From a virus, in the UHGV virus genome UHGV-0177136: a stretch of 34,105 bases of DNA; one strand, 5' to 3'. The notes beneath the pieces are model-generated. The model had not been told where the DNA came from and ran no database searches. It saw nothing but the letters and a program-made list of their open reading frames with translations. The position numbers were made by a program, and so were the translations under genes. This document shows positions 21,956 through 25,722 of the stretch, in pieces. The first letter of the stretch is position 1, and each line of letters begins with the position of its first letter.

Positions 21956-22726
21956 ATGAAAATGCAGACATTACCCATCGTTCCATGGATTGGTGGCAAA
22001 CGCCGCCTTGCAAAACACATCCTGCCGCTGTTTCCGGCGCATGAATGTTATGTGGAGCCGTTTTGTGGGGCAGCAGCGCTCTATTTTCTTAAGGTACCCG
22101 GCAAGATCGAAGTCATTAATGATATCAACGGTGAGCTGGTGAACCTGTATCGGGTGGTAAAACATCATCTGGAAGAATTTGTACGCCAGTTCAAATGGGC
22201 GCTGGTCAGCCGGCAGATCTACAAATGGCTGCAGATCACCCCGGAAGAAACACTGACGGATATCCAGCGTGCAGCACGGTTCTACTACCTTCAGAAGCAG
22301 GCGTTTGGGGGCAAGGTGGCGGAGCACAGCTTTGGTACCTCCACCATATCCCCGCCACGCTTCAACCTGCTGCGTATTGAAGAAGAACTGTCAGCGGCAC
22401 ACCTGCGGCTTTCCAGAACGGTCATAGAACACATGGACTGGCAACAGTGCATAGAACGATATGATCGCCCGCATACGTTGTTCTACTGTGACCCTCCATA
22501 CTGGGGAACGGAAGGTTATGGTGTGGAGTTCGGACTAGAAAATTATGATCATATGGCAGATTTAGCACGCAGGATCAAAGGGAAGATGATTATATCGGTG
22601 AACGATATCCCGGAAATGCGGCAGGCATTCAACGGTCTAAATATTCAGTCGGTTGATATCAGCTACAACCTCAAGATCACTGGCAAATCCAGTCGCAAGA
22701 AGGAACTCATTATCCTCAACTTTTGA
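21956..22726 (+). CDS. DNA adenine methyltransferase, Dam/D12 family (no adjacent restriction enzyme gene seen)
   Basis: 256 aa; N-terminal WIGGKRRL SAM-binding-type motif and DPPY catalytic motif; TATAAT at 21931..21936 upstream. Confidence 0.85.
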   Translation: MKMQTLPIVPWIGGKRRLAKHILPLFPAHECYVEPFCGAAALYFLKVPGKIEVINDINGELVNLYRVVKHHLEEFVRQFKWALVSRQIYKWLQITPEETLTDIQRAARFYYLQKQAFGGKVAEHSFGTSTISPPRFNLLRIEEELSAAHLRLSRTVIEHMDWQQCIERYDRPHTLFYCDPPYWGTEGYGVEFGLENYDHMADLARRIKGKMIISVNDIPEMRQAFNGLNIQSVDISYNLKITGKSSRKKELIILNF

Positions 22727-23921
22727 CCGAATAGTAAGACTTCATGCAGTGAATCAAGTACTGCATGAAGTCAAGGGCTGGTTTTGTGTACCAAAAATAA
22801 ACAGTGATAGCGGTAATAATTCCCATAACTAGAACACCACGTATAATCCAGAACGTACGTTTCTGCGTGTCTAGTCGCGCAGAAATACTGCTAAATACAC
22901 CAGCCACGTCATCTTTAATGAAGGAATATTCCTTATTAATCTGTTTTTCTTTGTATTCAATTTCTTCGCCTAAGGCCTTTATAGATTGCATCTGGTTCGA
23001 AAGTGCCAGCCAGATTAACGTTGCAGCAAAAATGCATCCCAGAAGAATTATTGTGTTTGTTATCCCTTGGCCTGACCATTTCGTAGCCACTTTGAATTGG
23101 GTAGCTACGATAACAGAGGCAACAGGAATGCCAAGTATATGGTTCTGGATATCTGAAAACGCTTTGTGGATTTTACCCATTTCTTCGACTTTTGCAGCAC
23201 GCAGTTGATCCATTACTTTGTCATAAGAGAATCCAGAAGAGTAGATACGATACCCTTTCAGAAACTTTTCATGCAGACGCTGAATATTGTCCAGTAAATA
23301 AGCGAATACTAGAGGTGAATCAATTCCATCACTAACTGCTTGAATACTTTCAATCAGAATATCTAGCTTCTGATCCTTATGGGTATCATCATTGAAACAA
23401 GCTATAAGGTTATCAAGATACTCCCTTTGCAAATTTTGTACATTTTCTGCAGCGAAGTGCGGTAATAGCTTGATAACTTCTTTTTTCAGAAAAACTAACT
23501 GACAAGTTGAGTTATCAAAGTAGGCCGCGGCCTCTTTTAGCAGATTAACGAACTCGAGAATCTTCCGGTAGTTGCTGATGAAAACGGGGATATCTTCATC
23601 ATCATTACGAAATTTTGTTTCTAGGATGAAGTAATTAGCTGGCTCAAGGCACTGATGCTTTGGAGCATTTAGCAATTTTTCATGGGTGGAAAACACAAGT
23701 CCCAGTCCACTCCGTGGTGACGTCACACGTAGGATGATCGTGTTACCTGGAGCGATAGTGCCTGTATCAATAGAAAGACCATATTCACGAGGATCATCAA
23801 GCAAAGTATCAACCAGATCACAATCGGACTGATCTAAGAGCAACAGCGAACCGACACGAAACCCCTCTTGGAATTCCATACGACGATACAGAGCTGTCAG
23901 CATCTCAAATGAAATCGCCAC
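22716..23921 (-). CDS. protein of unknown function with two C-terminal transmembrane helices; candidate effector of a two-gene module
   Basis: 401 aa; start GTG 23921 two nt after the upstream stop, with GAGG inside the upstream gene end; TM helices at ITNTIILLGCIFAATLIWLAL and FWIIRGVLVMGIITAITVYFWY; N-terminal ~275 aa unrecognised; visibly AT-richer than flanking phage genes. Confidence 0.6.
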   Translation of the reverse strand: MAISFEMLTALYRRMEFQEGFRVGSLLLLDQSDCDLVDTLLDDPREYGLSIDTGTIAPGNTIILRVTSPRSGLGLVFSTHEKLLNAPKHQCLEPANYFILETKFRNDDEDIPVFISNYRKILEFVNLLKEAAAYFDNSTCQLVFLKKEVIKLLPHFAAENVQNLQREYLDNLIACFNDDTHKDQKLDILIESIQAVSDGIDSPLVFAYLLDNIQRLHEKFLKGYRIYSSGFSYDKVMDQLRAAKVEEMGKIHKAFSDIQNHILGIPVASVIVATQFKVATKWSGQGITNTIILLGCIFAATLIWLALSNQMQSIKALGEEIEYKEKQINKEYSFIKDDVAGVFSSISARLDTQKRTFWIIRGVLVMGIITAITVYFWYTKPALDFMQYLIHCMKSYYSVKS

Positions 23922-23923
23922 GA

Positions 23924-24931
23924 TTAAACCTCAGTCATCCACATTTCCCTAAATTCTTCAGGTACATTACGTAGGGTGATAATATTTGTTTCCGGATCAT
24001 AATCAATATAGCCTTCAGTTTTCCCTTCCCGGTCAAACTTAAGTTCCCAATATTTAGACTTGCCTTTAAAAGATACCAGAGCCCGAATGACTCGACCATC
24101 AGGAACGAAGCCATCCGATAACTCCAACTCTTCAGCAGCAAGTTTACCAGATAACTCCTCGGGAGCCTGGGGCCAAATGGCATTAACAAGGGTTTCAAGA
24201 CTAAGTGGTTCACCAGCCTTACTTAGTGCATGTAAGTGTTCAAACGCACTCTTAAGAAATGCATCTTTTTCAGCGCCGTCAAGTCCTTTCTCTGCCGCAA
24301 ATGCTTTTAAAACGTCACGTAACTTTTCAGACTCTCGTTTGGCGATTAAGACATCATTACAGCCTAGGAACTGTTTAAAATAGTTTGAAACATTACCTTG
24401 CCCCTTAAGAAAACTGATATAGCGCTCTGCGCCACTTTCCCACGCGGTTAAGTCAATGCGCCCAGCCATACGCAGCTTAGCAATATCAAGATAGGTACTA
24501 TCTTGGATGTTAAAATCATCTGTGACAGTGGACCCAATGGTAGCGCTTACAATAGCTATCAACAGGTGTTCATTGTGTCCTATCACGATATTTGCAAAAA
24601 GAACATAACCACCAGTAGCCATGTTTTCTCGCTGAGAACGTTCCGTCAGGTGATGCATCATTCGGCAGGAACTTTGGTAGAAATCATCAACACCTTCGAG
24701 AAAGTCCCCAGCCATTCGTTCCATAGGATAGTTATCCGTATCGCCTTCAAAATAGCCATAACCTTTACCTGTGCGTCCTGCATATTTTGCACAAATATCG
24801 TTTATAAGGCGCTGAGAGGCTTCAGTAACTAGACCTTCTTCAGGACTCAATCTCTCAGAAGCGTCTCCATTTTGTTGTTTGTCTAAAATGTGAACTACAA
24901 CGTGTTTAACTTCAATGGTCTGCTCAGACAT
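23924..24931 (-). CDS. NdpA/YejK-like (NA37 family) nucleoid-associated DNA-binding protein homolog
   Basis: 335 aa, the length I recall for E. coli YejK; segments such as GGYVLFANI, YLDIAKLRMAGRIDLTAWESGAERYISFLKG and the C-terminal YIDYDPETNIITL match my recollection of YejK ([54 protein letters not shown]). RBS AAGGTGG upstream. Confidence 0.6.
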   Translation of the reverse strand: MSEQTIEVKHVVVHILDKQQNGDASERLSPEEGLVTEASQRLINDICAKYAGRTGKGYGYFEGDTDNYPMERMAGDFLEGVDDFYQSSCRMMHHLTERSQRENMATGGYVLFANIVIGHNEHLLIAIVSATIGSTVTDDFNIQDSTYLDIAKLRMAGRIDLTAWESGAERYISFLKGQGNVSNYFKQFLGCNDVLIAKRESEKLRDVLKAFAAEKGLDGAEKDAFLKSAFEHLHALSKAGEPLSLETLVNAIWPQAPEELSGKLAAEELELSDGFVPDGRVIRALVSFKGKSKYWELKFDREGKTEGYIDYDPETNIITLRNVPEEFREMWMTEV

Positions 24932-25001
24932 TGGCTATCCACCTTATTTTTTATTGCTTAATGGCAAATAATTTCTGCTATATGTTCTCGTTAGGAACAC
25001 A

Positions 25002-25409
25002 TTAACCCACATTTTTTAACCGCTCAATCGTTGCGGATAATTCCTTCAGTTGTTTTTCCATCTCAATCACACGCTGTTTTTCTTCAGCGCCTCGCATGAG
25101 ATCTCGCCGAACCTCAGGATCTAACTGGTTTAGAAGTTCAAGCATTTTAAGGTCTGACGGGCTGAATTGATGTTGTGTTGGTACAGCAACAATTTCTTTA
25201 GATGGAATATGTTCTTTACCGGTAAGTAGCCAATCGATCGATACACCCAAATGGGTACTTAGCGCAACAAGAGCCTCTGCGTTTGGTTCTCTCTCTCCAC
25301 GCAAATAGTTTTGAAGTGAGCGATATGGAATTTTTGATAAGTCAGATAATGCCTTTATTGTCATGCCATTAGCATCCATCACTTCACGCAATCTCTCTTT
25401 TGTACTCAT
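25002..25409 (-). CDS. prophage repressor, HTH XRE-type
   Basis: Likely start ATG 25409 (MSTKERLREVMDANGMTIKALSDLSKIPYRSLQNYLRGEREPN...; track start 25505 is a TTG inside the operator region); divergent from the ner-like gene. Confidence 0.7.
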   Translation of the reverse strand: MSTKERLREVMDANGMTIKALSDLSKIPYRSLQNYLRGEREPNAEALVALSTHLGVSIDWLLTGKEHIPSKEIVAVPTQHQFSPSDLKMLELLNQLDPEVRRDLMRGAEEKQRVIEMEKQLKELSATIERLKNVG

Positions 25410-25425
25410 TTGAACATATCTCAAT

Positions 25426-25453
25426 TTGACACACTCATTTGGGTGTGTACAAT
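25426..25453 (+). promoter_or_regulatory. sigma70-like early promoter (TTGACA-16 nt-TACAAT) with an ACACAC/GTGTGT inverted repeat in the spacer
   Basis: TTGACA at 25426..25431 and TACAAT at 25448..25453; inverted repeat 25429..25434 / 25443..25448; about 45 nt upstream of the ner-like ATG. Confidence 0.5.
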
Positions 25454-25491
25454 AGACCCAATAGAGTACATCATAACCTAACAAGAACACG

Positions 25492-25722
25492 GTGCATATG
25501 AACAAACAACAAGTTCGGGCACGGCTGGTTGAACGAGGCAGTAGCTTGCGCCAGTTCGCGCTTAACGCGGGCTATGAACCACGAACAGTCACCCAGGCAG
25601 TCAGTCGCTGGGCTGGTAAAAGTGAACTACCTCGCGGTCGTTTGACTTATCGGATTTTGCGAGATCTATCGGTTGCAATAGGTAAAGAAGTTACCCCCGG
25701 TATCCTTAAGGAGGCGTCATGA
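25492..25722 (+). CDS. ner: Ner-like DNA-binding regulator
   Basis: Track start is GTG 25492; probable ATG at 25498 (MNKQQVRARLVERGSSLRQFALNAGY...); small HTH protein divergent from the repressor and first gene of the early operon, as in Mu. Confidence 0.6.
   Translation: MHMNKQQVRARLVERGSSLRQFALNAGYEPRTVTQAVSRWAGKSELPRGRLTYRILRDLSVAIGKEVTPGILKEAS

What the first reader, a model, noticed from the sequence alone, without database searches (positions are those of the whole stretch)
22716..24931. Candidate novel two-gene module in a rexAB-like position: NdpA/YejK-like DNA-binding protein plus a membrane-anchored partner
Directly downstream of the repressor gene on the same strand lies a tightly coupled pair: a 335-aa protein that resembles the nucleoid-associated protein YejK/NdpA along its length, and a 401-aa protein with an unrecognised N-terminal domain and two C-terminal TM helices. 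The second gene starts at a GTG 2 nt after the first gene's stop. The pair is visibly AT-richer than the flanking phage genes and sits in the variable zone between the immunity and late regions. The geometry (repressor, then DNA-binding component, then membrane component, presumably expressed in the lysogen) parallels lambda cI-rexA-rexB. I do not recognise this pairing as a described defence system. Inference: a prophage-encoded exclusion or abortive-infection module in which the NdpA-like protein senses invading or replicating DNA and the membrane protein is the effector. Alternatives are a phage-serving nucleoid protein or a membrane-targeting factor.
Basis: partly seen in the sequence, partly recalled or inferred. 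Interest (0 to 1): 0.88.

Follow-up and report, generated by a model that had tools for sequence, protein, structure and literature searches.

The report
Prophage-borne PANGU-type NA37 defence pair
The two genes are real and always travel together, but this kind of pair (a YejK-like DNA-binding protein plus a membrane protein) was shown in 2025-2026 to be an anti-phage defence system, so this is a new prophage-borne member of a known kind and not a new system.

Summary
Two tightly coupled minus-strand genes (24931..23924, 335 aa; 23921..22716, 401 aa) lie just downstream of the repressor of a BcepMu-like transposable prophage of E. coli, in an AT-rich stretch. Gene 1 is a full-length NA37/YejK protein (Pfam E=1e-80). 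Gene 2 has an acidic N-terminal domain whose fold I could not match to anything, a strongly conserved juxtamembrane helix, and two or three hydrophobic helices. In 56 of 59 loci from other species, a gene-2 homologue sits directly behind an NA37 gene, while the neighbouring genes vary (phage, conjugative element, restriction and defence genes). The prophage's transposase is in 639 of 5426 complete E. coli genomes, the pair in only 19. So the pair is mobile cargo, not phage core. The pairing is already published. Gene 2's family is homologous over its full length (hhalign 99%, E=6e-18) to the second protein of DS-1, a YejK-domain system validated in E. coli (DefensePredictor, Science 2026). The architecture also matches type II PANGU (bioRxiv, April 2026). 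There the DNA-binding protein leaves the degraded host chromosome, binds the acidic domain of the membrane effector and aborts the infection. The novelty claim is not.

The parts
23924..24931 (-). Gene 1: 335-aa NA37/YejK-family nucleoid-associated protein (Pag2A-like / DS-1A-like sensor). It has no N-terminal zinc ribbon.
   Evidence: Pfam NA37 E=1e-80 over the full length. phrog_3767 E=7e-117. YejK 9be2_A E=7e-30. BLASTP to DS-1A WP_000355468.1 E=8e-9, 23% identity. Shine-Dalgarno AAGGTGGA lies 6 nt before the ATG.
22716..23921 (-). Gene 2: 401-aa membrane protein (Pag2B-like / DS-1B-like putative effector). GTG start 2 nt after the stop of gene 1.
   Evidence: phrog_5023 E=2e-142. No Pfam family. 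hhalign of its family against the DS-1B family: probability 99.0%, E=5.6e-18, 384 columns. AF2 model mean pLDDT 82.4.
23286..23921 (-). Gene 2 N-terminal alpha/beta domain (aa 1-212), acidic. Candidate domain that binds the NA37 protein (the 'DMK'-type domain).
23076..23285 (-). Gene 2 juxtamembrane helix and first hydrophobic segment (aa 213-282). This is the most conserved part of the family: GY..F.SGFSYDKV.DQL..AKVEE.GKIHK.FSDIQN.ILGIPVA.
   Evidence: 59% mean pairwise identity, against 31% for the N-domain and 36% for the C-terminal part. Most invariant columns of alignment A1 fall here. The motif is shared with DS-1B.
22719..23075 (-). Gene 2 C-terminal helical and membrane region (aa 283-401), with hydrophobic helices at about 288-310 and 356-378 separated by a charged helix.
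   Evidence: Kyte-Doolittle 19-aa maxima of 2.33 and 1.95. AF2 helices at 285-331, 333-378 and 380-400.
24932..25001 (-). 70-nt gap between the repressor stop and the gene 1 start. No terminator-like site, so the pair is probably co-transcribed with the repressor in the lysogen (inference).
   Evidence: Terminator scan finds nothing in the gap. There is a weak promoter-like site at 25066..25037 (-) inside the 3' end of the repressor gene.
25002..25409 (-). Context: prophage repressor (HTH_3 / CI-type).
   Evidence: Pfam HTH_3 E=6e-12 and Phage_CI_repr E=2.5e-6. RefSeq CDS.
21956..22726 (+). Context: Dam-type DNA adenine methylase, convergent with gene 2 and overlapping its 3' end by 11 nt. It marks the other border of the cargo slot.
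   Evidence: Pfam MethyltransfD12 E=7e-28. Coordinates.

Best explanation
The pair is a two-gene anti-phage defence cassette of the 'NA37 sensor plus membrane effector' kind (DefensePredictor DS-1; type II PANGU). It is carried as accessory cargo in the slot just downstream of the repressor of a BcepMu-like transposable prophage of E. coli, so it is probably expressed in the lysogen. Proposed mechanism, taken from the published homologous systems and inferred for this pair: in an uninfected lysogen, the NA37 protein (gene 1) is held on the host nucleoid by non-specific binding to long DNA, away from the membrane protein (gene 2). When an infecting lytic phage degrades the host chromosome (T4 EndoII/denA and later nucleases), the NA37 protein is released. 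It binds the acidic cytoplasmic N-terminal domain of gene 2, which stands in for DNA. This switches on the membrane part through the strongly conserved juxtamembrane helix, damages membrane integrity or energisation, and aborts the infection, which protects the lysogen population. Shown here: gene identities, the obligate pairing, mobility, cargo status, homology to DS-1B, the acidic N-domain and the hydrophobic helices. Inferred: expression from the repressor transcript, sensing by relocation, the NA37 to N-domain contact, and the membrane-damaging output. The published work itself leaves that last step open.
For: Gene 1 is a full-length NA37/YejK protein. Gene 2 has an acidic N-domain (net -14, pI 4.59) followed by hydrophobic helices. 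That is the architecture described for Pag2B: an N-terminal acidic DNA-mimic domain that binds Pag2A with KD 19 nM, plus a C-terminal TM domain. The gene 2 family is homologous over its full length to DS-1B (hhalign 99.0%, E=5.6e-18). DS-1B is the partner of a YejK-domain protein in DS-1, which was cloned with its native promoter and validated in MG1655. In 56 of 59 loci from different species the gene-2 homologue is directly preceded by an NA37 gene on the same strand, abutting or overlapping. The two proteins' identity matrices correlate at r=0.92 (Mantel p=0.001). Neighbours are not conserved and are typical of mobile elements and defence islands: phage repressors, integrases, antiterminator Q, holins, Mu genes, conjugation genes, HsdM, restriction endonuclease, Shedu SduA_C, AAA_15/21. 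The pair is in 19 of 5426 complete E. coli genomes, against 639 that carry the same prophage transposase. The closest phages (PhiKM, KP12, BcepMu, phiE255) lack it and carry other orphan genes in the slot. There is no terminator between the repressor and gene 1. For type II PANGU from E. coli the preprint reports that both genes are required, that neither is toxic alone, that the phenotype is abortive, that T4 denA mutants escape, and that GFP-Pag2A leaves the nucleoid on infection.
Against: No experiment exists on this exact pair, as far as I could find. The Pag2A/Pag2B sequences are not in the text I could read, so homology to the tested PANGU-Ecu system is unverified. The link to type II PANGU rests on architecture alone. 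Similarity to the validated DS-1 is remote: profile-level only for gene 2, 23% identity for gene 1, and DS-1A has an N-terminal zinc ribbon that gene 1 lacks. The N-domain is only moderately acidic across the family (median net charge -7, range -15 to +2). Its fold gave no confirmation of DNA mimicry. Only 4 of about 12 NA37 operons tested in the preprint protected, so membership does not guarantee activity against any given phage. The correlation of identity matrices could reflect co-inheritance alone.
Confidence: 0.75

Rival explanations
1. Kiwa-like logic with the roles reversed. The membrane protein senses envelope perturbation at the site of phage attachment or DNA entry, and it releases or activates the NA37 protein, which coats the incoming phage DNA and blocks its replication. 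This would be non-abortive exclusion.
For: Kiwa is also a membrane protein (KwaA) plus a non-specific DNA-binding protein (KwaB). Residues 262-394 of gene 2 give a weak PADLOC KwaA hit (E=8e-5, 21 bits). One passage of the PANGU preprint floats PagB as the sensor that licenses PagA.
Confidence: 0.08
2. A phage-serving function. A prophage-encoded nucleoid protein helps transposition or replication of the Mu-like genome (as HU and IHF do for Mu), or tethers DNA to the membrane through gene 2.
For: The element is a transposable phage whose biology depends on nucleoid proteins (established knowledge for Mu). The pair lies next to the immunity and early region.
Against: The pair is absent from about 97% of E. 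coli genomes that carry this prophage family's transposase (19 against 639), and from PhiKM, KP12, BcepMu and phiE255. The same pair occurs in lambdoid and P2-like prophage contexts, in conjugative elements and next to restriction or defence genes in alpha-, beta- and gamma-proteobacteria, mostly with no MuA-like transposase nearby. Its orientation and position fit lysogenic expression, not early lytic expression.
Confidence: 0.05
3. An addiction or toxin-antitoxin module that stabilises the prophage. The membrane protein is the toxin and the NA37 protein is the antidote.
For: Tight two-gene coupling with a membrane protein second. Mobile-element context.
Against: In the tested type II PANGU neither gene alone was toxic, and both were needed for protection. 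A transposable prophage inserted in the chromosome has little need for post-segregational killing. Both proteins (335 and 401 aa) are large for a typical TA pair.
Confidence: 0.04

Closest known systems
DS-1 (working code D390) of DefensePredictor: WP_000355468.1 (YejK/NA37-domain protein) plus WP_000150292.1 (404 aa), E. coli GCF_003886375 (DeWeirdt et al., Science 2026, PMC13092281; preprint January 2025)
   Same: Same gene order: an NA37 protein, then a partner of about 400 aa, 2 nt apart (DS-1A ends at 221777 and DS-1B starts at 221780; the window pair also has a 2-nt gap). The partner families are homologous over their full length (hhalign 99.0%, E=5.6e-18, 384 columns), including the shared juxtamembrane motif. 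The NA37 proteins are related (BLASTP E=8e-9). DS-1 was listed among validated defence units in MG1655.
   Different: Only remote similarity: about 18% identity between partner profiles and 23% between the NA37 proteins. The two partner families do not find each other by phmmer. DS-1A has an N-terminal zinc-ribbon extension (391 aa) that gene 1 lacks. The hydrophobic segments of DS-1B are weaker by Kyte-Doolittle. I did not examine the genomic context of DS-1.
Type II PANGU (Pag2A + Pag2B; PANGU-Ecu from a uropathogenic E. coli), Li et al., bioRxiv 10.64898/2026.04.06.716658, April 2026
   Same: A bicistronic operon of a YejK-like nucleoid protein and a transmembrane effector that has an acidic N-terminal domain and a C-terminal TM region. 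The host species is E. coli. The preprint's operon criterion (gap under 40 bp) is met. The preprint reports a spread across phyla, and here the family reaches alpha-, beta- and gamma-proteobacteria and beyond.
   Different: I could not obtain the Pag2A/Pag2B sequences, so identity or homology is unverified. The preprint found its systems by linkage to defence islands, whereas this copy sits in a prophage cargo slot behind the repressor. The preprint calls the N-domain a mimic of a long DNA duplex. Here I can confirm only its net acidity and that the fold has no solved relative.
Kiwa (KwaA + KwaB)
   Same: A two-gene defence that pairs an integral membrane protein with a non-sequence-specific DNA-binding protein. 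Gene 2 gives a weak KwaA HMM hit.
Lambda cI-rexA-rexB
   Same: The position and the logic are alike. Two genes sit directly downstream of the repressor on the same strand, are presumably expressed in the lysogen, and combine a cytoplasmic component with a membrane component for abortive exclusion (established knowledge for RexAB).
   Different: There is no sequence relationship: PADLOC gave no Rex hit for either protein. The sensor family is different, and so is the phage type (transposable BcepMu-like rather than lambdoid).
E. coli YejK (NdpA), the chromosomal 37-kDa nucleoid-associated protein
   Same: Same Pfam family and the same length, aligned end to end.
   Different: YejK is a stand-alone core gene. 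Gene 1 is a diverged, horizontally mobile paralogue that is always coupled to the membrane partner.

Membership tests
NA37 / YejK (NdpA) nucleoid-associated protein family (gene 1) | Full-length match to Pfam PF04245 above the gathering score | tested here: met
   E=1e-80, 272.1 bits against a cut-off of 24.6, residues 12-327 on profile positions 1-324 of 325.
NA37 / YejK (NdpA) nucleoid-associated protein family (gene 1) | Sequence similarity to a solved YejK structure over the whole chain | tested here: met
   9be2_A, E=6.8e-30, query 4-330 on chain 4-329.
NA37 / YejK (NdpA) nucleoid-associated protein family (gene 1) | Non-specific DNA binding and nucleoid localisation | not testable with these tools
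   Needs EMSA and microscopy.
Type II PANGU (Pag2A/Pag2B) | YejK-like nucleoid protein gene in a two-gene operon (intergenic distance under 40 bp) | tested here: met
   2-nt gap, same strand. Criterion taken from the preprint's methods.
Type II PANGU (Pag2A/Pag2B) | Partner protein with a C-terminal transmembrane domain | tested here: met
   Hydrophobic helices at 288-310 and 356-378, plus a conserved one at 262-280. AF2 shows long helices there.
Type II PANGU (Pag2A/Pag2B) | N-terminal acidic 'DMK' DNA-mimic domain in the partner | tested here: inconclusive
   Net charge -14 and pI 4.59 for aa 1-212. The family median is -7 but ranges up to +2. The fold is confidently predicted (pLDDT 93.9) but has no solved relative, and I could not compute a surface charge pattern.
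Type II PANGU (Pag2A/Pag2B) | Sequence homology to Pag2A/Pag2B of the tested PANGU-Ecu system | not testable with these tools
   The sequences are in a supplementary table that is not held.
Type II PANGU (Pag2A/Pag2B) | High-affinity binding of the nucleoid protein to the partner's N-domain | not testable with these tools
   Needs BLI, a pull-down or a multimer structure prediction. Only co-variation of the two families was measured (r=0.92), and co-inheritance could explain that.
Type II PANGU (Pag2A/Pag2B) | Abortive anti-phage protection that needs both genes, with escape through T4 denA | not testable with these tools
   Experimental.
DS-1 (DefensePredictor) | Second gene homologous to DS-1B (WP_000150292.1) | tested here: met
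   Profile against single sequence: 94.8%, E=5.4e-8. Profile against profile: 99.0%, E=5.6e-18, 384 columns over the full length.
DS-1 (DefensePredictor) | First gene is a YejK/NA37-domain protein related to DS-1A | tested here: met
   Both contain NA37. BLASTP E=8e-9, 23% identity over 196 aa.
DS-1 (DefensePredictor) | N-terminal zinc-ribbon extension on the NA37 protein | tested here: not met
   In DS-1A the NA37 domain spans residues 42-382, after a Cys-rich N-terminus with a weak NinF/Zn-ribbon hit. In gene 1 the NA37 domain starts at residue 12 with no extension. This feature may not define the system's function.
Kiwa | KwaB with a DUF4868 domain | tested here: not met
   Gene 1 has no PADLOC hit and only NA37 in Pfam.
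Kiwa | KwaA four-TM membrane protein | tested here: inconclusive
   [not shown]
Lambda RexAB | Sequence homology to RexA/RexB | tested here: not met
   No Rex model among the PADLOC hits for either protein at E up to 0.1. The resemblance is positional only.

The most novel reading that the evidence does not exclude
This may be a distinct, untested branch of the NA37-coupled membrane effectors. It forms a large family (1,266 representatives at 50% identity). Its NA37-binding module is an unmatched alpha/beta fold with a faint LAGLIDADG/WhiA-like two-repeat topology. Its near-invariant juxtamembrane helix (GFSYDKV...KIHK.FSDIQN.ILGIPVA) would be a new kind of switch that converts binding of a nucleoid protein into membrane damage. 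Carried behind the repressor of a transposable prophage, it would let the lysogen read 'my host chromosome is being destroyed' as the signal of superinfection. How the membrane effector works is left explicitly open in the published work, so this family could supply that answer.
Probability: 0.3. Interest if true: 0.55.

Novelty: new member of a known kind. Interest (0 to 1): 0.33.

Why it matters
The finding shows that the recently described defence using a nucleoid-associated protein as sentinel is also prophage cargo. It sits in the classic lysogen-expressed slot behind the repressor of a BcepMu-like transposable phage that is common in E. coli (639 of 5426 complete genomes carry the transposase, 19 carry the pair). 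It ties two independent 2025-2026 reports (DS-1 and type II PANGU) to one broad protein superfamily. It defines the conserved anatomy of the membrane partner: a variable acidic N-domain, a near-invariant juxtamembrane helix, and hydrophobic helices. These are concrete targets for working out the unsolved effector step. It also marks the slot between the repressor and dam/holin in these prophages as a place where other orphan genes, possibly defences, are exchanged.

Tried and rejected

(3) Near-identical DNA in the phage collection: none.

(4) Core-gene hypothesis. Rejected by comparison with PhiKM, KP12, BcepMu, phiE255, JJ1886 and C9.

(5) Identity of the alternative cargo genes in the same slot. 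They have no PADLOC or Pfam assignment beyond DUF2441 and sub-threshold AAA hits.

(6) Accessions WP_001007984 and WP_000003711 were searched in the literature and in the DefensePredictor supplements: no occurrence. Some of those files are truncated.

(7) The PANGU supplementary sequences could not be read.
Full report
OBSERVATION. The window is a BcepMu-like (Bcepmuvirus) transposable prophage of Escherichia coli. The 2.2-kb finding is identical or at least 99% identical in 18 complete E. coli chromosomes, and 91.7% identical in one more. It lies at different chromosomal positions in different strains. In strain M-17 the RefSeq annotation shows the layout. Late genes run leftward. Then come a Dam methylase (+), a 'hypothetical protein' (-), a 'nucleoid-associated protein' (-) and an HTH repressor (-). 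After that the rightward early operon follows (ner-like gene, IclR-HTH, DUF3102, DDE transposase, ExeA/MuB-like gene, Gam ... Mor), ending next to rstB.

Gene 1 is 24931..23924, 335 aa, with an ATG start. Gene 2 is 23921..22716, 401 aa, with a GTG start 2 nt after the stop of gene 1 and a GAGG Shine-Dalgarno inside the end of gene 1. The pair has GC 0.414, against 0.555 for the rest of the window. The repressor gene is equally AT-rich. The 70-nt gap between the repressor stop and gene 1 has no terminator-like site, so read-through from the repressor transcript is plausible. A weak promoter-like site lies inside the 3' end of the repressor gene.

WHAT THE PROTEINS ARE. Gene 1 is a full-length NA37/YejK-family protein. 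Pfam PF04245 gives E=1e-80 over profile positions 1-324 of 325. It matches phrog_3767 'nucleoid associated protein' and the solved YejK chain 9be2_A at E=7e-30.

Gene 2 has no Pfam family but belongs to phrog_5023 (E=2e-142). AlphaFold2 with a 24-sequence alignment gives mean pLDDT 82.4. The model has an alpha/beta N-domain (aa 1-212, pLDDT about 90) followed by four long helices: 213-275, 285-331, 333-378 and 380-400. Hydropathy shows two strong hydrophobic segments (about 288-310 and 356-378) and a weaker one (262-280). The N-domain is acidic, with 33 D/E against 19 K/R and pI 4.59.

Within the family the N-domain is the most variable part (31% mean pairwise identity). The juxtamembrane stretch 213-282 is by far the most conserved (59%), with a near-invariant motif GY..F.SGFSYDKV.DQL..AKVEE.GKIHK.FSDIQN.ILGIPVA.

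THE PAIR IS AN OBLIGATE, MOBILE UNIT. Gene 2 has 166 homologue clusters at 90% identity. An exhaustive profile search finds 1,266 representatives at 50% identity (921 at E of 1e-10 or below), almost all about 400 aa long.

A scan of one genome per species returned 59 loci in gamma-, beta- and alpha-proteobacteria, plus two MAGs from other phyla. In 56 of the 59 loci an NA37 gene lies immediately upstream on the same strand, abutting or overlapping. The three exceptions are one C-terminal fragment (aa 191-392) in Cupriavidus.

Pairwise identity matrices of the two proteins over 53 loci correlate at r=0.92 (Mantel p=0.001). This shows the two are inherited as a unit. It is compatible with physical co-evolution but does not prove it.

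The genes on either side are not conserved. They include phage repressors, integrases, antiterminator Q, holins, Mu gp27 and portal, and P2 tail genes. They also include conjugation genes (TrbC, TrbI, TraN, AcaB, DUF2857), restriction and defence genes (HsdM, restriction endonuclease, Shedu SduA_C, AAA_15/AAA_21), and an MqsR toxin. Only six loci have a MuA-like transposase nearby. A few phage and plasmid records also carry homologues.

IT IS CARGO, NOT PHAGE CORE. The transposase of this prophage occurs in 639 of 5426 complete E. coli genomes, mostly at 95-99% identity. The pair occurs in 19.

The closest sequenced phages have no gene-2 homologue. These are Escherichia phage PhiKM (transposase 98.5% identical), Klebsiella phage KP12 and Escherichia phage Phi06_2974 B (both 93.7%), and Burkholderia phages phiE255 (69.5%) and BcepMu (68.7%).

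In KP12 the position behind the repressor holds a single 177-aa orphan gene. In E. coli C9 it holds a 328-aa and a 193-aa orphan. In JJ1886 the repressor is followed directly by dam, with an IS66 element and small orphans beyond. None of these alternatives matches a PADLOC or Pfam family in a meaningful way. The stretch between the holin and the repressor is therefore a variable cargo slot.

COMPARISON WITH WHAT IS KNOWN. PADLOC (2023) has no model for gene 1 and gives only a weak partial KwaA hit for gene 2 (E=8e-5). Two recent papers do describe this pairing.

(i) DefensePredictor (preprint January 2025; Science 2026; PMC13092281). The authors cloned predicted units with their native promoters into MG1655. 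They list 'a YejK nucleoid-associated domain' among the domains newly validated in defence. The unit is DS-1 (working code D390). It consists of WP_000355468.1 (391 aa, zinc ribbon plus NA37) followed 2 nt later by WP_000150292.1 (404 aa). I took the DS-1B sequence from the supplement. The gene 2 profile matches it at 94.8% probability, E=5e-8. After I built a DS-1B family alignment (69 clusters), profile-profile comparison gave 99.0%, E=5.6e-18, over 384 columns. That covers both proteins end to end and includes the juxtamembrane motif. The two NA37 proteins are related at BLASTP E=8e-9.

(ii) Li et al. (bioRxiv 10.64898/2026.04.06.716658, April 2026). They define PANGU systems. [quoted passage not shown] Both genes are required and neither is toxic alone. 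Protection against T4 is abortive, and escape mutants map to denA (EndoII). GFP-Pag2A leaves the nucleoid on infection. [quoted passage not shown] They note that how Pag2A activates Pag2B 'remains to be determined'.

The window pair meets every architectural criterion of type II PANGU that I could test. I could not read the Pag2A/Pag2B sequences, so I cannot say whether this is the tested system, a homologue, or only an architectural look-alike.

MECHANISM. The best-supported reading (confidence about 0.75) is a lysogen-expressed abortive-infection cassette. The NA37 protein is parked on the host nucleoid. Degradation of the chromosome by an infecting phage frees it. It then binds the acidic N-domain of the membrane protein, which acts through the conserved juxtamembrane helix and the hydrophobic helices to compromise the membrane and stop the infection. 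The anatomy, the obligate pairing, the cargo status and the homology to DS-1B are shown here. The sensing and effector steps are inferred from the papers, and the membrane output is my own inference.

Three rivals are each unlikely, for the reasons given in their entries: a Kiwa-like reversed logic, a phage-serving nucleoid protein, and an addiction module.

VERDICT. The functional interpretation is largely right, with one correction: in the published model the signal is loss of host DNA, not recognition of incoming DNA. The claim that the pairing is undescribed is out of date. I rate it a new member of a known kind with moderate-to-low interest (0.33). What remains of value is the prophage context, the link between DS-1 and PANGU-type systems, and the defined anatomy of a membrane effector whose mode of action is still unknown.

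Noticed in passing
window 22716-22726: The Dam methylase gene (21956..22726, +) and gene 2 (22716..23921, -) converge, and their 3' ends overlap by 11 nt. There is no room for a terminator between them, so transcription of one may interfere with the other.
   Followed up: no
L064:3342-5972 (E. coli C9), L062:6485-7464 (Klebsiella phage KP12), L063:2928-5585 (E. coli JJ1886): In closely related prophages the same slot behind the repressor holds unrelated orphan genes: 328 aa plus 193 aa in C9, 177 aa in KP12, and small orphans plus an IS66 in JJ1886. None has a PADLOC or Pfam assignment. They may be other untested lysogen-expressed defences.
   Followed up: partly
L050:7992-8618 (also L051, L052; Cupriavidus, plasmid-borne): A 208-aa ORF matches only the C-terminal half of gene 2 (aa 191-392, 44% identity). 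It has no NA37 gene upstream and lies next to large unannotated ORFs on the opposite strand. It is either a decayed remnant or a stand-alone membrane module.
   Followed up: partly
[not shown]
   Followed up: partly
L011 and L015 (Jeongeupia wiesaeckerbachi chromosome, two sites): The same transposable prophage, including the NA37-membrane pair, is present twice in one chromosome, about 1.27 Mb apart. This fits active transposition.
   Followed up: no
L028 (Thermoanaerobaculia MAG) and L029 (Candidatus Yonathbacteria MAG): Complete NA37-plus-partner pairs, 34-35% identical to gene 2, turn up on contigs assigned to an Acidobacteriota MAG and to a CPR bacterium. This is either wide horizontal transfer or a binning error.
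   Followed up: no
window 25426-25453 (+) and 25409-25505: The best sigma-70-like promoter in the region (11 of 12 matches, TTGACA-16-TACAAT) points rightward into the ner-like gene. It lies just upstream of the annotated repressor start (25409), on the opposite strand and inside the extended repressor ORF (TTG start at 25505). This is the expected divergent immunity switch. I did not look for operators.
   Followed up: no
L003, L004 (Brenneria, Pectobacterium): The pair (80-82% identical) travels with a near-identical MuA-type transposase, but no homologue of this window's repressor was detected. So the cassette is not tied to one immunity type.
   Followed up: no
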